In this document: positions 1 through 6,036 of the stretch, piece by piece | Layout: every line of letters starts with the position of its first letter | Position numbering within the stretch: the first letter of the stretch is position 1 | Virus record (IMG/VR): IMGVR_UViG_3300044816_000060 | Location: 2,080 to 66,079 of that record | Direction: 5' to 3' (one strand) | Source: a virus | Taxonomy: Duplodnaviria > Caudoviricetes | DNA: 64,000 nucleotides | Notes under the pieces: model-generated | Database searches by the model: none | Seen by the model: only the letters and a program-made list of their open reading frames with translations | What the model was told of the DNA's origin: nothing | Made by a program: the position numbers and the translations under genes

Positions 1-26
1 GGCCAACGCCTCGCCGTGCTCGTCGA

Positions 27-461
27 TCAGCTTGACGAGCTGGAGGCTTCCCCCGGCTGCGCCTCACCCTGATACACGTTGAACGTCTCGATCAGCTTCT
101 CCTGGTCGAGCCGGCCCGGCCACGCCTTCCATGCGTCCTTGTCGGCCGCCGCGCTACCCAGGTAGCGGCCGATCGCGCCCAACAGCTTGTAGAACGCCGA
201 CGCCTTCTCGGCGTTCAACGTCTGCCCCTTCTTCAACTTACCGGACTGCTTCTCCAGCTCCACGATCTCGCCGAGAATCAGAGCGGCCTGGGCCCGATCC
301 TCCCACTCCATCCGGTGCGGGGGCCGCAGCTCGGGGCAGCCGTCCGGGTAGACGAGTTTCCCGTCGGCCAGCTTCGCGTCCGCCGCCAACTGATCAGTCA
401 GGGACGCCTTCGCCCCGTCAGCGGTCCCCGGGGGGACCTGGAACGTCTCGATGCTCATCAC
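27..461 (-). CDS. tail assembly chaperone (pre-frameshift form)
   Basis: Follows major tail gene; ends ...EAQPGEASSSSS with GGGGGAA slippery site; -1 frame is open to the window edge (GSLQLVKLIDEHGEALA). Confidence 0.9.
   Translation of the reverse strand: MMSIETFQVPPGTADGAKASLTDQLAADAKLADGKLVYPDGCPELRPPHRMEWEDRAQAALILGEIVELEKQSGKLKKGQTLNAEKASAFYKLLGAIGRYLGSAAADKDAWKAWPGRLDQEKLIETFNVYQGEAQPGEASSSSS
48..54 (-). other. programmed -1 frameshift site GGGGGAA
   Basis: ttccccc on + strand; the heptamer used in actinophage tail chaperone G/GT pairs. Confidence 0.9.
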
Positions 462-548
462 GCGGGTTCTCCGTCATCTTCGGGCGCGGGTTGTAAGGTG
501 GTCGACCGGCCGGTGAACCCGCGTGGAACCCCGGCCGGCCTACCTCTC

Positions 549-1409
549 TTACGGGCCGCCAGGCGTGGTGGTGGTGACCGCCACGGCCGGGGACGTGCCA
601 CCGGTGAACGAACCGGTCGCGGTCATCTGCGCCACGTCGGCGTCCTCCAGGCTGCCCTGGAACGTGACCACGTACGGGGTGGCCGGCCCGGGACCACCGG
701 TGACGACGACGTCGTTGTTGCCGATGTTCGACAGGGCCCGCAAAGCCGTCTGCACAGCCGTGGCGGTCGCGTTCCACGCGATGGCACTGGTCGTCTGCCC
801 GGAGTAGGTCAACGTGAAACTACCGCCGGTCGGGGTACCGGTGATCGTGACCGTCTGAACCTCGTTCGTCAACGCGCCCACGTCGGCGCCATAGAACTCC
901 ATCAGGTTGGACCCGGTCACACCCAGGACGGTCGCCCGGATCGGCCACTCCATGAACTCCTGCGTGTCCAACTGGACATCGTCGTCGGAGGCGATCGACA
1001 CCTTCGGCACGTAGAACGGGAACTCGTTCGCCCCGTCCACAATCCTCACGAACAACGCGGCATCCTGCGACACCGCGTTGATCGGCACCCCGAACACCCC
1101 GGCCACCGAAATGTCCCCACCTCCGAAGTAGAGGCGGAACGTGTCGTTCGACCACTGCAACAGCACCAGGGTGACGGCGAAGAACACCGGGTCACGCTGG
1201 TTTCTCAGCGCGGGGTTCTGCCAGGTGCCCTTGATGTTCGAGTCCCCGCCGTCGCGGGCGATGGTGAGGCCGTTGCCCTCACTGGTGTGCCCGAGCGAAC
1301 TCCACGGCGACTCAGGGTCGGTCAGGGTGACAGGCTTCGGGGTGCCGACCGGCGCCAGATAGGCGTATCCGGTCCCGGGGATTACGGTGGCGGAATCGAG
1401 CATCGGCAT
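549..1409 (-). CDS. major tail protein with C-terminal extension
   Basis: PGTGYAYLAP...LGHTS motifs of actinophage tail tube proteins; position in operon; C-terminal NEVQTVTITGTPTGGSFTLTY module. Confidence 0.9.
   Translation of the reverse strand: MPMLDSATVIPGTGYAYLAPVGTPKPVTLTDPESPWSSLGHTSEGNGLTIARDGGDSNIKGTWQNPALRNQRDPVFFAVTLVLLQWSNDTFRLYFGGGDISVAGVFGVPINAVSQDAALFVRIVDGANEFPFYVPKVSIASDDDVQLDTQEFMEWPIRATVLGVTGSNLMEFYGADVGALTNEVQTVTITGTPTGGSFTLTYSGQTTSAIAWNATATAVQTALRALSNIGNNDVVVTGGPGPATPYVVTFQGSLEDADVAQMTATGSFTGGTSPAVAVTTTTPGGP
564..631. repeat. 68-bp repeat shared with capsid gene (copy 1)
   Basis: 67/68 identical to 3223-3290; encodes QMTATGSFTGGTSPAVAVTTTT. Confidence 0.95.
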
Positions 1410-1500
1410 TTCGGGGTCCTCCTGAATCAGGCCCCGAAATGGGGCTCAGGGCATGCGGAACGCCCGGACGCCAGAGGCGGACGGGTCTGGGGTAGAGCGG

Positions 1501-1926
1501 CTAGCGCGGGTTGCGGATCAGCAGGTCGTAGACAGCGATGTACCTGCCCGCCTCCGGGAACCCGATGTCGGTCTCACGCCGGAAACCGGAAACCTCCACC
1601 CAGCCGGCGATGTGCCCGTACGGGGTCACCATCTGGCCCTTCCAGGCCGCGTACAGGACCGTGGCCACCTGCCGGGACAGCGTGTAGGCGGTAGCGTCGT
1701 CGACCGCCCACACCTGATACGTCATCGAAAACCTGGACAGGTATTCGGGCCGGGTCGAGCTGCCCCCGGCGTGGTGGATGCACACCGCCGGGATCAGCGT
1801 GCGCAACTGGTCCGGGATCTGGGAGTAGACGTTCACCCCGCCCAGACCGGCCCGCAGCAGGTGCAACTGCACGGCGATCCCGTCCACGAACGGCACGGCC
1901 GTCGTGTCCGGGATCAGGGTGGCCAT
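1501..1926 (-). CDS. tail terminator
   Basis: Size, position before major tail gene, C-terminal RY.A.YDLLIR motif. Confidence 0.75.
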   Translation of the reverse strand: MATLIPDTTAVPFVDGIAVQLHLLRAGLGGVNVYSQIPDQLRTLIPAVCIHHAGGSSTRPEYLSRFSMTYQVWAVDDATAYTLSRQVATVLYAAWKGQMVTPYGHIAGWVEVSGFRRETDIGFPEAGRYIAVYDLLIRNPR

Positions 1927-1928
1927 GG

Positions 1929-2048
1929 TGCGGCCTGGAGTCCCACGCCGACCTCGTCGGCGCGGTGAACGTACTCAGGGCCGGGCTGGTCCTGCATGCC
2001 GCGCAAGCGGCATGAGAAGCCGGTGCCTTCAGGCATCGGAGGAGTCAC
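1929..2048 (+). mobile_element. IS200/IS605-family relic: tnpB 3' end plus right end (omega-RNA scaffold region)
   Basis: + frame reads CGLESHADLVGAVNVLRAGLVLHAAQAA* (TnpB C-terminus); hairpins catgccgc-GCAA-gcggcatg and ccggtgcc-ttca-ggcatcgg; ends GGAGGAGTCAC. Confidence 0.85.
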
Positions 2049-2335
2049 CAGAACGCGCCGGTGATGGCGTGGATGCCTTCCACGCCGCGGCCCTGCTTGG
2101 TCGTGTGGCCGAATTCGATGGCCGCGGCCGCGCCACCAGGGTCAACCAGGTTGACGAAAGAATCCGTCACACCGTGGGTGACCGTGATGTGCGCGGCCCC
2201 GGTGCGGTGGTGACCGGACAGAATCGCCTCAGCCCTCCTCGCACCGCCCCGAGCTTCGGACGCCACCGCCTCAACAACGCCAGGAAGATGGGCAACCACC
2301 GAGTCGCAGTCGGCGTTGATCCGCACCGACGCCAT
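2045..2335 (-). CDS. neck/head-tail connector (DUF5403-like)
   Basis: ATG overlaps upstream stop; AAIEFGH...GIHAI motif. Confidence 0.75.
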   Translation of the reverse strand: MASVRINADCDSVVAHLPGVVEAVASEARGGARRAEAILSGHHRTGAAHITVTHGVTDSFVNLVDPGGAAAAIEFGHTTKQGRGVEGIHAITGAFW

Positions 2336-2685
2336 CAGCGTTCCTCCCGCAGATAGACGGTGACGTGGCCGGTGCCCGGCGAGAAGTCCCGGCCCAGCGG
2401 TGCGCCGGTCGGTACGAACCGTCGGCCCTGCCACGTCACCGCCGACCACGGACCGGCCGGCACAGAGCGACCGATCAGGCGATAGTCGACGTCAAGCCGC
2501 TGACCCTCATCCAGGTCCCGCAAGGCCCGCTGCGAGGTGACCGGCTGCATGAACACCCCGGCCACCGTCACCGGGCCGGTGGCCTTCGGCTGGCTCACCG
2601 GGTTACCCCGGCCGTCCACCACCGTCTCCTCGGGGAAGACCTGGACGGTGTCCGGGCCGTTGTCGAGCAGGCTCACAGACACCAC
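2335..2685 (-). CDS. head-to-tail stopper
   Basis: SLLD.GPDTV.VFP...DGRGN, GPWSAVTW.G motifs; synteny. Confidence 0.75.
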   Translation of the reverse strand: MVSVSLLDNGPDTVQVFPEETVVDGRGNPVSQPKATGPVTVAGVFMQPVTSQRALRDLDEGQRLDVDYRLIGRSVPAGPWSAVTWQGRRFVPTGAPLGRDFSPGTGHVTVYLREER

Positions 2686-2686
2686 C

Positions 2687-3160
2687 TCAGCAGTCGTAGG
2701 TGTCGACCGGGAACATCTCGAACCCGAAGCTGTCTTCCATCCACGCCGTATTGCTGGCGTGCAGGTCGCCCCGGGTGGTCGCCTGGATCCACAGACCGGT
2801 CCGACCGGCGGCCCGGCGGATGATCTTCAGTTCTCGCTCGGTGAGGTACATTCCGCCCTCACCGACAGCACCGTTGCGCTGGTAGCTGTAGTCGCCGGCC
2901 GCCTCCGAGGAATAGCCCTCAGGGTTACGGAAGGCCCGCTCGGCGACCCGGATCGTGATGACCCGCACAACCCGCGGCGCGGTGAGGACGGTCGGGTCGT
3001 CCGGGGAGACCCACGTTTGGTGGCCTTCTTCCCGGACGAACTCCGACGCGTCCTCGATCACTGCCGTCGCACGGTCTACATCGGTGTCGGAGTCGATCTC
3101 GCGGCCCAGACGGGCAACGAGATCCTCCACCTTCGCCAGCGGCGGCAGCGTGTCAGCCAC
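2687..3160 (-). CDS. head-to-tail adaptor
   Basis: LAKVEDL.ARLGR...RNPEGYSSE.AGDYSY...MYLT.RE motif. Confidence 0.85.
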   Translation of the reverse strand: MADTLPPLAKVEDLVARLGREIDSDTDVDRATAVIEDASEFVREEGHQTWVSPDDPTVLTAPRVVRVITIRVAERAFRNPEGYSSEAAGDYSYQRNGAVGEGGMYLTERELKIIRRAAGRTGLWIQATTRGDLHASNTAWMEDSFGFEMFPVDTYDC

Positions 3161-3165
3161 TGGGC

Positions 3166-4410
3166 TTAAGCGCCCAGCGTGAGCTTGACCCCGCGAACGA
3201 ACGTTTTGGTGCTGCCCTCAGCCGTGGTGGTGGTGACCGCCACCGCCGGGGACGTGCCACCGGTGAACGAACCGGTCGCGGTCATCTGCGGCGGGTTCAG
3301 CCCGTCCAGGTCCAGGGTGATGGTCACCGCGGTACCCGGCAGAGCGCCGCCGGCGGCCGTGATCTGGTTGGCGGCCAGTGTGGTGCCCGCGACCAGGGCG
3401 GCCTTCACCTGCGCGGCGGTGGCGTTGTACGCGATCGCGGCCGTGGTGTTGCCGTCGTAGGTCAGGGTGAATGAACCGCCAGTCGGCGTGCCGGTCACGG
3501 TGACGGTCTGGACCTCGTTCGACTCCGGCCCGTCGATGATCGCCGAGCAGCCCATGTACAGGTCGACCATGGACCGATCCTGGGCGTTGCGGAAGTCGTA
3601 GTCCTTGATCCACCGCAGGCTGAGCCCGTTCTTGCTCAGGGTCGAGCCGTAGCTGGCGCCGCTGGGCACCTTGGGCGCGATCATGACCGCGCTGTAGGCG
3701 GTGCGGTGGAACGCGTAACCCTCGTCCGGGTTCAACGCCAGGGACACCACCACCTGCGGGAAGCCCGCGATACGGCCGATGGTGGCGTCCCGAAGAGCCG
3801 ACCCGGCACCCGAATCGCCGGAGGCGTCGAACCGACGGAACTGCGGATCCTTCAACAACGCGGCCTCGATCGCCGAACCCACAACCACGACCCGATCACT
3901 CATCGGCACGTGCTCATCGTTGAGGAACCGGCGGGCGTCCACGAACCCGGGGAAGGTGTCCGCCGCCGAGATGGTGGCGGTGTGCGCGTAGGTCGTGTTC
4001 TGCATGACCTTGGCGATCTTGTTCTCAGCGCCCTCGGACACCGCTCGCACCATGGGGGTGAGGATCTGGTCGGCGTAGGAAACGATGTCCAACGTCTCCT
4101 CCTCATCCGTTGTGGGCACCGCCGAGTAGATGGCCTGGTCCAGGGTCACATCGACCTTGGTCTCGACCAGGCTGTCCATCGTGATGATGCCGTCGCCCTC
4201 AGACGCGGTACCTCGAGCACCCCGAAGCGCCCTGGTCCGGGCGGTGGTGCGGGCCGGGACACGGATGGAGACGGTGTCACCGGCGTTGCCGACCCAGTCG
4301 GACGGCTTGGTGGCGTCCGTCCAGACCAGGGACGGGAGAATGATCTCCCGCTGCAACAGGCCCAACGCCATCGCGGTGATCTGCTGGGACTTGACAAAGG
4401 TGTTCGCCAC
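3166..4410 (-). CDS. major capsid protein with inserted module near C-terminus
   Basis: MANTF..., GDTVSIRVP, YAFHRTA, LSLRWIKDYD motifs; follows scaffold gene. Confidence 0.9.
   Translation of the reverse strand: MANTFVKSQQITAMALGLLQREIILPSLVWTDATKPSDWVGNAGDTVSIRVPARTTARTRALRGARGTASEGDGIITMDSLVETKVDVTLDQAIYSAVPTTDEEETLDIVSYADQILTPMVRAVSEGAENKIAKVMQNTTYAHTATISAADTFPGFVDARRFLNDEHVPMSDRVVVVGSAIEAALLKDPQFRRFDASGDSGAGSALRDATIGRIAGFPQVVVSLALNPDEGYAFHRTAYSAVMIAPKVPSGASYGSTLSKNGLSLRWIKDYDFRNAQDRSMVDLYMGCSAIIDGPESNEVQTVTVTGTPTGGSFTLTYDGNTTAAIAYNATAAQVKAALVAGTTLAANQITAAGGALPGTAVTITLDLDGLNPPQMTATGSFTGGTSPAVAVTTTTAEGSTKTFVRGVKLTLGA
3223..3290. repeat. 68-bp repeat shared with major tail gene (copy 2)
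   Basis: 67/68 identical to 564-631. Confidence 0.95.
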
Positions 4411-4479
4411 GGGAACCTCCTAGGTTCATGGGGGCTGGAACCGCTTGGGGCGCCGTGGCGAACGGGCCGTGCGGTGCGC

Positions 4480-5088
4480 CTACCGCCTCGGAAGGAGGGC
4501 GGCGAGCTTCGAGGGGTCGGTTTCGTTCGACCCCTCGTCGGGGTCACCTCCACCACGGAGGCGCTCCCTGGGCTTGCTGGACACAGGCGGCTTGCTGGTG
4601 GCCGGCTCCGGCGCGATCAGCGCGTAGAGCTCCTTCGCGTCCGCTTCGAGCTCAGCATCGGTGTCGCCGTGGAGCCGTTTGGCCACCGCCCGGATCTGGG
4701 CGGGGGTGGCGTGCTCCGGGGCGTGCTCCTCCGCGGACTCGCGTCGCCGCATCGACGACGTGGCCTTGCTCAACTCGGCCTTGAGTGAGTCCCGCTCCTC
4801 CTGGAGTCGCTGGTTCTCGCTCTTGTCCTTGTCCGAGTGCTTGCGCAGCTCGTCCTGAGCCTTCTGCAACTCTGCACGGATCGAATCCCGCTCCTCGCGG
4901 ACGGCGCGCCGGTCCTCTTTGATGCGGTCGAGGGCGCGCTGACCTGCCGGGCTGAGCTGGTCAGCCCCTGGGTCGTCGGCCTCGTCCTTCTTCCCGGCGT
5001 CGTCCTTCGGCTTCTCCAGGAGGCGCTTGGCGTCCTCTTCGGTGATGCCGTCGAGCTCGTCGGTGTCGGTTTCCTTCGTGTCAGCCAT
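4480..5088 (-). CDS. capsid scaffolding protein
   Basis: Acidic coiled-coil; RLHGDT.AELEADA motif; directly upstream of capsid gene. Confidence 0.85.
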   Translation of the reverse strand: MADTKETDTDELDGITEEDAKRLLEKPKDDAGKKDEADDPGADQLSPAGQRALDRIKEDRRAVREERDSIRAELQKAQDELRKHSDKDKSENQRLQEERDSLKAELSKATSSMRRRESAEEHAPEHATPAQIRAVAKRLHGDTDAELEADAKELYALIAPEPATSKPPVSSKPRERLRGGGDPDEGSNETDPSKLAALLPRR

Positions 5089-5154
5089 GGGCTGGTTCTC
5101 CCGTTGCGGGAAGTGCCCGCACGGTGCGCGCGAGCGACATTTGAGGGGCGCCTG

Positions 5155-6036
5155 TCAGGCGCTGAGAAACTCCGGGGGCGCGGCTTCACGGCGGTTCTTG
5201 TCGTGGGCCCTGCGGAACGCGTTGATGGCGTCCTTGCCGCTGTAGCCCTTGGTGGAGCGGTAGTAGAGGCGCTGGAACTCGCGCGCTCTGCCGGGCCAGC
5301 TGGCAGAGCTGGAGTAGACGGCTTCCGCCGTGCAGCAGCAGCCGTCGTGCGCCGGGAACGAGGCCCGCTTCGGCGATCGGTAGACCGGTCCTCGGGACGC
5401 CAGGAGAGCGCAGAACGCGCACGGGTCCGAGTCGGTTACCCGCGCCCAACCCAGCACCGTGTCGTCGGCGTGGATGAGCGTCAGGGCTGTCTCGCGCCCG
5501 CCGTTGAGGACGTGGCGGGACGCCGACCCGGATGCAACGACCAGACCCCGGTCCCTCGCCTGCCGCTCGGCGCGCCCCATCCCGGCCTGGCGCTTCAGCT
5601 CGCCCGGACCGGTCACCAACAGCGACCGTTCAGCGGCACGGTCGAACCCGGCCCAGTCGATGCGCGGCCGAACCGCCTCAGCGCTCTGCCGCTCGGCGTT
5701 GCGCACGTCGCGGAGCACGTCGATAACGAGGTCGTCCGGGATGTCGGGCGCGTGGACATACTCGACCGCCGACGACGGGTGCAGCCTCGCCCGGACAGGG
5801 GCCTCGACGATGCGGAAGTCCTGGAAGTAGCGTTCCGAGCGCCGCGCCGAACGCTGCCGAAACGAACGGATCAACGCCATCGACGCCCGCACCCAGGCCG
5901 GCGCGGTCGCATCCAGGTCGGGCCAGCTCAGAGACGGCCACAGCTGCACGAACTGCGCCAGGAACGCCGCCTTGATGGCGACCTGGTCGAGCCGGTGCTC
6001 CTCGGTGAGCGCCTGGCCTTCCTGGGTGGCGGCCAC
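5155..6036 (-). CDS. capsid maturation/MuF-like protein
   Basis: WARV..DPCAFCALLASRGPVY...AHDGC.C motif between portal and scaffold. Confidence 0.8.
   Translation of the reverse strand: MAATQEGQALTEEHRLDQVAIKAAFLAQFVQLWPSLSWPDLDATAPAWVRASMALIRSFRQRSARRSERYFQDFRIVEAPVRARLHPSSAVEYVHAPDIPDDLVIDVLRDVRNAERQSAEAVRPRIDWAGFDRAAERSLLVTGPGELKRQAGMGRAERQARDRGLVVASGSASRHVLNGGRETALTLIHADDTVLGWARVTDSDPCAFCALLASRGPVYRSPKRASFPAHDGCCCTAEAVYSSSASWPGRAREFQRLYYRSTKGYSGKDAINAFRRAHDKNRREAAPPEFLSA

What the first reader, a model, noticed from the sequence alone, without database searches (positions are those of the whole stretch)
1929..2068. Orphan tnpB 3' end trimmed to about the omega-RNA scaffold, antisense in the head-tail operon
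Seen: the 120-bp gap between two structural genes encodes a TnpB C-terminus (CG..SHAD..GA.NVLRAG). It keeps three hairpins (one with a GCAA tetraloop) and the right end GGAGGAGTCAC, whose TCA also serves as the neck gene stop. No tnpA, tnpB or left end remains in the window. Established: TnpB omega-RNA scaffolds overlap this part of the element and use the adjacent 3' flank as guide. Inference: it may still express a guide (CAGAACGCGCCGGTGATGGC) loaded by a host TnpB in trans against IS-free sibling phages. It could also act as a TnpB decoy, or just be a tolerated scar.
Basis: partly seen in the sequence, partly recalled or inferred. Interest (0 to 1): 0.72.

Follow-up and report, generated by a model that had tools for sequence, protein, structure and literature searches.

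The report
Transposon stump in phage neck operon
A 122-base leftover of a bacterial jumping gene (the tail of its tnpB gene plus its right end) sits between two neck genes of an uncultured soil phage, and it is most likely a tolerated scar, not a working guide RNA.

Summary
Window 1927-2048 (+ strand) is a 5'-truncated remnant of an actinomycete IS200/IS605-family element. It holds the last 28 codons of tnpB, the stop, all conserved 3' hairpins and the right end GGAGGAGTCAC.

It is 65-78% identical to 3' ends of Streptomyces, Nonomuraea and related tnpB genes. It is 90% identical to a metagenome copy that still has tnpB upstream (L136).

Two related phages keep the tail-completion and tail-terminator genes overlapping as TTCTGATG. 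Here the remnant splits that overlap exactly. Its left edge abuts GCCAT, which matches the (G/T)CCAT motif found beside 10 of 13 left ends of the family and is the reverse complement of the terminator gene's ATGGC start.

The 66-kb phage has no tnpA, tnpB or left end. Similar stumps of about 75-822 nt are common in bacterial genomes, with no pile-up at this length.

The remnant does cover a scaffold-sized stretch: 122 nt against 116 nt for ISDra2. Its would-be guide would match the unoccupied site. However, I found no promoter, no RNA data, no known host and no sibling phages.

Verdict: a locked-in insertion scar (about 0.6). A trans-acting orphan guide remains possible (about 0.15) but has no direct support.

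The parts
1927..2048 (+). 122-nt 5'-truncated IS200/IS605-family remnant (tnpB 3' end plus right end)
   Evidence: Alignment A1. 90.2% identity to L136, whose tnpB frame continues upstream. Splits the TTCTGATG overlap that is intact in L005 and L006.
1929..2015 (+). Last 28 codons of tnpB (zinc-ribbon/TNB and RuvC HAD motif region) plus the TGA stop. No start codon gives an ORF of 30 aa or more in this frame.
1922..1926 (+). GCCAT, a TAM-like target motif directly 5' of the remnant. It is the reverse complement of ATGGC, the start of the tail terminator gene.
   Evidence: 10 of 13 left-end junctions of family members have CCAT at this place. L202 has GGCCAT.
1946..1962 (+). Hairpin 1, CGCCGAC-CTC-GTCGGCG, lying in the HAD..VGA codons. 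Shared with the Nonomuraea/Actinokineospora-type subfamily.
1976..1994 (+). Hairpin A, CAGGGCC-GGGCT-GGTCCTG
   Evidence: RNAalifold outer pair CG:62 / AU:15 of 80 sequences.
1995..2014 (+). Hairpin 2, CATGCCGC-GCAA-GCGGCATG. It overlaps the tnpB stop.
   Evidence: The hairpin is kept in the family through many compensatory variants (83 distinct sequences of 121).
2020..2039 (+). Subterminal right-end hairpin, CCGGTGCC-TTCA-GGCATCGG (one G-T/G-U pair at 2036)
   Evidence: Five pairs of this stem show 16-42 double changes among 80 sequences.
2038..2048 (+). Right-end terminus GGAGGAGTCAC. Likeness to all relatives stops after 2048.
   Evidence: invariance was forced for the loci fetched with the pattern, but not for L002-L004 or L136
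2049..2068 (+). Would-be guide: the phage's own sequence next to the right end, which is the 3' end of the Neck1 gene
   Evidence: By position only. The 16-mer is unique in the window, and the next best matches have 2 mismatches.
2045..2338 (-). Tail completion / Neck1 gene (DUF5403). Its stop TGA lies inside the right end, and one extra Trp is added compared with relatives.
   Evidence: Pfam DUF5403 4e-26. phrog_321 3e-18. Relatives end ...GAF*.
1501..1926 (-). Tail terminator gene. Its ATG directly abuts the remnant.
   Evidence: phrog_123 3e-18. Homologues found in L005 and L006.
1914..2048 (-). Mechanical 44-aa ORF bridging the gap. Its GTG overlaps the Neck1 TGA (GTGA), and it ends 10 nt inside the terminator gene.
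   Evidence: No PHROG match. An open frame of this length is expected by chance in DNA this GC-rich.

Best explanation
Shown: 1927-2048 is the right-hand 122 nt of an actinomycete IS200/IS605-family element that carried tnpB. Inferred: the element inserted in the way typical of the family, without target duplication and immediately 3' of its target motif (G/T)CCAT. In this phage that motif is the reverse complement of the tail terminator gene's ATGGC start, so the element landed exactly in the TGATG stop/start overlap between the Neck1 and terminator genes, antisense to them. Inferred: a later deletion removed everything from the first base of the left end to tnpB codon -29. Because its left edge coincides with the transposase cleavage position, the deletion may have begun with a TnpA cut. 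Without a left end, tnpA or tnpB, the piece can neither excise nor move, so it is locked in. It is tolerated because the right end supplies an in-frame TGA to Neck1 (one extra Trp) and the terminator gene keeps its ATG. Its present state is most likely a neutral or slightly costly scar with no function of its own.
For: - Homology: 68-74% identity to the 3' ends of Streptomyces tnpB genes, one with a Y1 tnpA beside it. Identity to L136 is 90.2%, and there the tnpB frame runs on upstream with TNB and OrfB_IS605 domains.
- Empty site: L005 and L006 have ...TTCTGATG... with the two genes overlapping. The window has TTCTG + 122 nt + ATG.
- Target motif: CCAT lies directly left of 10 of 13 inferred left ends. 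The window has GCCAT.
- A second phage-like contig (L202) carries an intact 399-aa tnpB of the same lineage (84% identity at the 3' end). It is also antisense and also sits exactly at a TGATGG stop/start junction, behind a tail tube gene, with GGCCAT on its left.
- Stumps are common: 21 other 5'-truncated right-end remnants of about 75-822 nt were found among the 120 loci, with no peak near 116-122 nt. L137 is another of about 110 nt.
- Nothing in the phage could use the piece: there is no TnpB, TnpA or OrfB domain in the 66 kb, and no promoter-like site on either strand in 1400-2500.
- The 12 differences from L136 look like divergence inside a working tnpB, before truncation. Three are synonymous and four codon changes fall at variable residues. 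No conserved residue is hit and there is no frameshift.
Against: - None of the 21 other stumps abuts CCAT (BLAST ends are approximate), so the exact junction here is unusual. A random deletion would rarely end at the first base of the left end. I could not show the TnpA-initiated route.
- The remnant keeps every conserved hairpin. It differs from L136 at only 1 of its last 74 nt against 11 of its first 48 (P about 3e-4 under uniform spread). This could reflect a mosaic parent, a recent event, or selection on the 3' part.
- The insert breaks a translational overlap that relatives conserve, so some cost is expected, yet it persists.
- Only one genome carries it and only two distant relatives show the empty site, so the ancestral junction is inferred, not observed.
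Confidence: 0.6

Rival explanations
1. Orphan guide RNA. A + strand transcript covering 1927 to about 2068 is bound, and perhaps trimmed, by a TnpB made from a related IS in the host. The complex cuts GCCAT + CAGAACGCGCCGGTGA..., the unoccupied site of sibling phages, while the carrier is protected because the insert separates motif and target. The outcome would be exclusion of competitors, or copying of the stump into them by break repair (homing without its own nuclease).
For: - The geometry is right. The motif GCCAT is kept at the left junction, the right end is intact, and the flank would be the guide.
- All hairpins conserved in the family lie inside the remnant.
- 122 nt covers the 116-nt functional scaffold of ISDra2, whose 5' 115 nt are dispensable (passages of PMC10097598).
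- A lineage with a nearly identical 3' 74 nt and an open tnpB frame exists in nature (L136).
- PATEs that encode omega RNAs needing TnpB in trans are described (Discussion passage of bioRxiv 10.1101/2023.03.14.532601).
- TnpB is reported to process its own mRNA into omega RNA (abstract start of PMC10278001 only).
Against: - There is no promoter-like site on the + strand (the scan is sigma-70 type only, so this is weak evidence for actinomycetes).
- The + strand is antisense to a late structural operon.
- The host is unknown, and no genome among the 401 sampled has a copy above 80% identity.
- Stump lengths in bacteria show no threshold at scaffold size. Six of the 21 are shorter than 116 nt, and so is L137 at about 110 nt.
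- The only empty sites found carry 2-3 mismatches to the 20-nt guide, and one of them lacks CCAT.
- The scaffold's true 5' limit in this family is unknown.
Confidence: 0.15
2. A cis-acting role on the phage's own mRNA (- strand). The reverse complement of the stump would act as a structured spacer between the Neck1 and terminator genes. It might set their expression ratio, protect the transcript, or keep ribosomes flowing through the 44-aa bridging ORF that starts at GTGA and ends 10 nt into the terminator gene.
For: - The - strand also folds well: z -2.75, with 1 of 200 shuffles as stable.
- A bridging ORF exists, with its GTG overlapping the TGA.
- The insert lies inside an operon that must be expressed.
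Against: - Relatives manage with a direct ATGA overlap.
- The structure is inherited from the IS and is not special to the phage.
- An open frame of 44 codons is expected by chance at this GC content.
- The bridging ORF has no PHROG match.
- There is no terminator-like T run in the gap.
Confidence: 0.15
3. The 122 nt arrived as a unit. It would be a PATE-like mini-element in which hairpin 1, 19 nt from the left edge, serves as a stand-in for the left-end hairpin. A TnpA acting in trans would have excised it and pasted it 3' of GCCAT.
For: - This would explain the exact junction at the target motif without a second event.
- True left ends have a GC-rich hairpin about 20 nt from the CCAT.
- PATE-like derivatives of the family exist (L098: a left end joined to the last 150 nt or so).
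Against: - No other copy with this left boundary was found. There is one copy in the phage. The metagenome scan returned only 2 loci, one with tnpB upstream and one stump with a different edge. There was none in the viral contigs.
- Hairpin 1 lacks the TTCA loop shared by true left and right ends.
- In L136 the sequence before the break (..GTGTGC) is not CCAT-like.
Confidence: 0.07
4. Decoy. The transcript would soak up host TnpB and so blunt cleavage of the phage by host IS-encoded guides.
For: Only that the scaffold-like part is intact.
Against: - There is no evidence of expression.
- TnpB is not known from my reading to act as an anti-phage defence.
- A single-copy antisense RNA is a poor sponge.
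Confidence: 0.02

Closest known systems
5'-truncated remnants of IS200/IS605-family elements (tnpB 3' end plus right end) in actinomycete genomes
   Same: Same sequence family, the same retained part, and the same loss of left end and tnpB. 21 examples were seen among 120 loci, plus L137.
   Different: This one is in a phage structural operon, and its left edge sits exactly at the target motif. None of the 21 others does.
ISDra2 TnpB omega RNA (Deinococcus radiodurans)
   Same: The guide RNA scaffold is made of the tnpB 3' end and the right end, with the guide taken from the flank. The functional scaffold is 116 nt, against 122 nt retained here (passages of PMC10097598).
   Different: There is no sequence likeness and the target motif differs (TTGAT against (G/T)CCAT). 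Here there is no TnpB in cis and no evidence of an RNA. A pseudoknot analogue (GAC 1950-1952 pairing with GUC 2044-2046) is only my guess.
PATEs (palindrome-associated transposable elements), protein-less IS200/IS605 derivatives that can encode omega RNAs used in trans
   Same: No protein gene, and a scaffold-like right end that would depend on TnpB from elsewhere (Discussion passage of bioRxiv 10.1101/2023.03.14.532601).
   Different: PATEs keep both ends and are mobile and multicopy. This piece has no left end and is single-copy.
Full-length element of the same lineage in viral contig L202
   Same: 84% identical 3' end, nearly the same right-end hairpin, the same antisense placement at a TGATGG stop/start overlap in a tail-gene operon, and GGCCAT on the left.
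   Different: L202 keeps an intact 399-aa tnpB. It has a HicB-like small ORF and an AT-rich stretch where a left-end hairpin is expected, and it carries an 11-nt direct repeat at both junctions.
Prophage-encoded TldR (nuclease-dead TnpB) with guide RNA
   Same: A phage-borne guide RNA derived from the TnpB lineage (search listing and abstract start of PMC10705468 only).
   Different: Those systems carry their own protein and target host promoters. Here there is no protein, and the flank-derived guide would match phage DNA.

Membership tests
IS200/IS605-family element with tnpB | tnpB coding sequence (OrfB_IS605, TNB zinc ribbon, RuvC motifs) | tested here: not met
   Only the last 28 codons are present. 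PF07282 scores 12-13 bits, below the cut-off. PF01385 is absent from the 66-kb record. Homology of the remaining piece is clear.
IS200/IS605-family element with tnpB | Right end: subterminal hairpin plus conserved terminal motif, with likeness ending at the cleavage point | tested here: met
   The hairpin 2020-2039 with a TTCA loop and the GGAGGAGTCAC terminus are shared with L002-L004 and L136, and the flanks diverge after 2048. The stem covaries in the family.
IS200/IS605-family element with tnpB | Left end with hairpin | tested here: not met
   Phage sequence (the start of the terminator gene) abuts position 1927 directly. The left-end consensus of relatives is absent.
IS200/IS605-family element with tnpB | Y1 transposase TnpA, in cis or elsewhere in the genome | tested here: not met
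   PF01797 has no match in the whole virus record. The host genome is unknown.
IS200/IS605-family element with tnpB | Insertion 3' of a short target motif without target duplication | tested here: met
   TTCTG|insert|ATG compared with TTCTGATG in L005 and L006, with no duplicated bases. GCCAT lies on the left, as in 10 of 13 family left-end junctions.
Functional omega RNA (OMEGA guide RNA) | Conserved scaffold structure present and complete | tested here: inconclusive
   All three hairpins conserved in the family are kept. RNAalifold finds no conserved structure upstream of the break. The true 5' limit in this family is unknown. The 116-nt figure comes from ISDra2.
Functional omega RNA (OMEGA guide RNA) | Transcribed on the element's strand | not testable with these tools
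   No promoter-like site was found (a weak test). No RNA run is listed for the stretch.
Functional omega RNA (OMEGA guide RNA) | Cognate TnpB in the same cell | tested here: inconclusive
   None in the phage. A near-cognate lineage exists in a metagenome (L136). The host is unknown, and the best of 401 sampled genomes reaches 80% identity.
Functional omega RNA (OMEGA guide RNA) | A motif-flanked target matching the guide exists | tested here: inconclusive
   L005 has ACCAT + target with 3 mismatches in 20. L006 has GTCAT + target with 2 mismatches. The predicted exact empty site is not in the viral contigs.
PATE / MITE-like IS200/IS605 derivative | Both ends retained, and several copies | tested here: not met
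   There is no left end. There is one copy in the genome. No other copy with the same boundary was found.

The most novel reading that the evidence does not exclude
The stump is a guide-only selfish element. It would be transcribed at a low level on the + strand and loaded onto a TnpB supplied by a related IS in the host. It would direct cleavage of the unoccupied GCCAT + CAGAACGCGCCGGTGA site in co-infecting sibling phages. The break would either kill the competitor or be repaired from the carrier, which copies the 122 nt into it. That is homing by an element that has shed its nuclease, its transposase and its left end, and so can no longer be excised.
Probability: 0.12. Interest if true: 0.8.

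Novelty: new member of a known kind. Interest (0 to 1): 0.35.

Why it matters
As a scar it is ordinary, because truncated IS200/IS605 ends are common. Two points are worth keeping.

First, this IS lineage's target motif (G/T)CCAT is the reverse complement of ATGG. It therefore lands precisely at stop/start overlaps (TGATGG) of GC-rich phage operons. This was seen here and, with an intact tnpB, in a second viral contig. That predicts where such elements will be found in actinophages, and it explains a class of odd short intergenic gaps.

Second, the stump has every part an RNA-guided nuclease would need except the protein, together with the motif and a guide that matches the unoccupied allele. 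If a host TnpB uses it, it would be a minimal homing element or a weapon between phages. That idea can be tested at the bench in laboratory actinomycetes.

Tried and rejected
- Rfam at E up to 10 over window 1-6000 found nothing in the gap.
- blastn of 1400-2600 against cultured phages found no match. The 141-nt query against phages gave only 22-53-nt matches at E 0.1-0.4 in 17 records.
- The major capsid protein searched by tblastn is below 60% identical to all 443 matching phage records, with the best at 44% to Mycobacterium phages, so there is no close cultured relative.
- The exact family pattern found 0 matches in the viral contigs. The window-specific 21-mer, the right-end junction 22-mer and the predicted empty-site 19-mer each found 0. 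Records near the window's own may be hidden from these scans.
- Searching for a close parent in genomes: 8 of 401 sampled genomes of the class matched at E up to 1e-12, with the best at 80% identity. The host genus is not pinned.
- Sequencing runs: one soil-metagenome DNA run holds the stretch, and no RNA holder is listed. Its contigs (depth 3-5) carry both junctions but break at 1978/2010 inside the remnant. No variant, joint or loose end was seen. This says nothing on expression or on alleles.
- Cryptic cleavage site: I looked for a right-end-like or CCAT-like motif just before the break in L136 (..CTGTGTGC|GG) and saw none. The TnpA-initiated deletion therefore stays an inference.
- Pseudoknot: both candidate strands (GAC of the HAD codon, GUC of the terminus) are invariant, so covariation cannot test the pairing.
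- Literature: searches listed no paper on an orphan omega-RNA remnant in a phage. 'Orphan' in PMC13622181 refers to oppA genes. These searches cover open-access text only.

Full report
**What the window is.** The window is bases 2080-66079 of a 66,079-bp IMG/VR virus record with direct terminal repeats, rated complete. Its structural genes lie on the - strand:
- tail tube, 549-1409 (Pfam Phage_TTP_17, 9e-48)
- tail terminator, 1501-1926 (phrog_123, 3e-18)
- tail completion / Neck1, 2045-2338 (DUF5403, 4e-26; phrog_321, 3e-18)
- head closure, 2335-2685
- Gp19-like connector, 2687-3160
- major capsid, 3166-4410

The capsid protein is below 60% identical to all 443 matching cultured-phage records, with the best at 44% to Mycobacterium phages. 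The 1.2 kb around the finding has no DNA match among cultured phages. This is an uncultured actinophage-like virus.

- The + strand 1929-2012 reads CGLESHADLVGAVNVLRAGLVLHAAQAA, followed by a stop.
- blastn of 1920-2060 against plasmids gave 28 records, 14 of them Streptomyces. The best were 68-74% identical over almost the whole query, on the 3' ends of roughly 400-aa 'transposase' genes.
- One of these genes has OrfB_IS605, TNB and HTH domains and a Y1 transposase gene beside it.
- In alignment A1 the likeness starts at 1927/1928 and ends exactly at GGAGGAGTCAC (2048). After that, all flanks differ.
- The + strand folds into four hairpins, with z -2.99.
- TCA at 2045-2047 is the Neck1 stop.

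**The family.** They came from Streptomyces, Kitasatospora, Nonomuraea, Actinomadura, Streptosporangium and others. Their last 122 nt are 65-78% identical to the window. Of the 52 loci with at least 1300 nt upstream, 34 have an open tnpB frame of 381 aa or more.

A metagenome scan with a 22-mer from hairpin 2 found two loci.
- L136 is 90.2% identical over 123 nt. Its tnpB frame (TNB 5e-20, OrfB_IS605 1e-9) runs on upstream to the contig edge.
- Comparing L136 (..TGTGTGC|GGTGTGGCC) with the window (..GGCCAT|GGTGCGGCC) places the break between 1926 and 1927.
- Eleven of the 12 differences from L136 lie in the first 48 nt, and one lies in the last 74 (P about 3e-4 under uniform spread).
- Within the codons, three changes are synonymous and four fall at variable residues. 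No conserved residue is hit.
- I read this as divergence inside working tnpB genes, or a mosaic parent, before truncation. Selection on the 3' part cannot be excluded.

**The empty site and the target motif.**
- Two related viral contigs (Neck1 57-61% identical) have the Neck1 and terminator genes overlapping as ...TTCTGATG.... The window has TTCTG, then the 122 nt, then ATG, with nothing lost or duplicated.
- I inferred left-end junctions for 13 family members from the point where copies stop resembling each other. These positions are approximate. CCAT lies directly outside the left end in 10 of the 13, mostly as TCCAT or GCCAT. The exceptions are GGAAT, GCCAC and TTCAT.
- The window has GCCAT at 1922-1926. 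This is the reverse complement of ATGGC, the start of the terminator gene. The remnant's left edge therefore sits exactly where a full element's left end would begin.

**A second case.** A scan of viral contigs with a 15-mer returned 118 loci, and 3 of them have a family-like 3' end. L202, from a 99.9-kb contig, shows the following:
- It carries an intact 399-aa tnpB, 84% identical to the window's remnant at the 3' end, with nearly the same right-end hairpin.
- It is antisense to the phage genes. Its right end overlaps the stop of a tail tube gene (Phage_TTP_16, 7e-26), and GGCCAT, the start of the next gene, is on its left.

The lineage therefore repeatedly hits TGATGG stop/start overlaps in phage tail operons.

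**Structure.**
- RNAalifold on 80 sequences (the window's 122 nt plus the last 250 nt of 79 family members) predicts conserved pairs only in the last 85 nt or so. These are hairpin A (outer pair CG:62 / AU:15) and the right-end hairpin, where five pairs carry 16-42 double changes. Nothing is predicted upstream of the window's break.
- Hairpin 2 is kept in the family through many compensatory variants: 83 distinct sequences of 121.
- The window keeps all of these hairpins.
- In ISDra2 the functional scaffold is 116 nt and the 5' 115 nt are dispensable (passages of PMC10097598). So 122 nt is scaffold-sized by analogy.
- Whether these hairpins serve the RNA, or serve the single-stranded DNA recognised by TnpA, cannot be separated here.

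**Is the length meaningful?** Among the 120 loci, 21 others are 5'-truncated stumps that keep the right end. Their lengths are about 75, 78, 81, 97, 104, 111, 135, 145, 149, 209, 220, 275, 295, 311, 372, 397, 420, 455, 521, 559 and 822 nt. L137 adds one of about 110 nt. The scan could not find stumps shorter than 74 nt. The lengths form a smooth decline with no step at about 116 nt, so the window's length is not evidence of selection. None of the 21 abuts CCAT, which makes the window's exact junction unusual.

**Origin (inferred).** The element inserted at the motif in the usual way. A deletion then ran from the left cleavage point into tnpB. A TnpA cut at the left end followed by end joining would explain the exact edge. 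Actinomycetes having Ku/LigD end joining is my recollection, not a call result. I found no cryptic cleavage motif at the inner break. The alternative is that the 122 nt moved as a mini-element. Hairpin 1 lies 19 nt from the edge, much as true left-end hairpins lie about 20 nt from CCAT. However, no other copy with this boundary was found.

Copies without a left end cannot be excised. That may be why the two phage copies examined in detail, the window's stump and L202, both lack a left-end hairpin.

**Function.**
- The phage has no TnpB, TnpA or OrfB domain.
- No promoter-like or terminator-like site lies in or next to the gap (this is a sigma-70 consensus only).
- The would-be guide (2049-2064) is unique in the window.
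- The only empty sites in hand differ from the 20-nt guide at 2-3 positions, and one of them lacks CCAT.
- On the - strand the insert is a structured 118-nt spacer. A mechanical 44-aa ORF starts at GTGA and ends 10 nt inside the terminator gene. This could keep ribosomes moving, but it is expected by chance in DNA this GC-rich.

**Verdict.** The piece is a genuine IS200/IS605 tnpB/right-end stump at a bona fide target site, and most likely a locked-in scar (0.6). Its functional inference is logically sound, since motif, scaffold and guide are all in place and PATE omega RNAs that need TnpB in trans are in print. But that inference has no direct support (0.15). Supplements of the cited papers were not consulted.

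Noticed in passing
L202:139-1570 (IMG/VR contig, 99.9 kb): An intact 399-aa tnpB of the same lineage sits antisense between a tail tube gene and the next gene. Upstream there is no left-end hairpin. Instead there is an AT-rich stretch and a 67-aa HicB/RHH-like ORF (PF05534, 24 bits) whose end overlaps the tnpB start. An 11-nt direct repeat, CATCAGATGGT, lies at both junctions, so the left junction repeats the first 8 nt of the would-be guide. This may be a phage-kept TnpB module rather than a mobile IS.
   Followed up: partly
L136 (reverse complement), about 40 nt downstream of its right end: A second, very short right-end remnant (..CCAAGGCATCGGAGGAGTCAC) follows the full element. It carries the same G-T variant of the hairpin arm as the window.
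   Followed up: no
L098 (Streptomyces genome locus): A PATE-like derivative: a left end (CCCATCCCTGATC.. with its TTCA hairpin) is joined directly to the last 150 nt or so of tnpB plus the right end.
   Followed up: no
window 549-1409 (-) and 3166-4410 (-); also the tail tube genes of L005 and L006: The tail tube protein and the major capsid protein end in the same domain of about 100 aa (NEVQTVT.TGTPTGGSFTLTY...QMTATGSFTGGTSPAVAVTTTT). There is a weak MBG_3 hit in the tube protein. This looks like a shared surface or decoration domain on head and tail.
   Followed up: no
window 1937-1946: GGAGTCCCAC resembles the right-end terminus GGAGTCAC. L136 has GGCCGAGCAC at this place, and five of the 12 differences from L136 cluster here. 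The meaning is unknown.
   Followed up: partly
window 1978-2010: The public run's contigs stop at 1978 and restart at 2010, inside the remnant. This is as expected if related IS copies in the same soil community branch the assembly graph, or it may simply reflect low depth.
   Followed up: no
L137:1935-2053 (metagenome contig): Another stump of about 110 nt from the family (77.7% identical to the window). tblastn found no tnpB upstream.
   Followed up: partly
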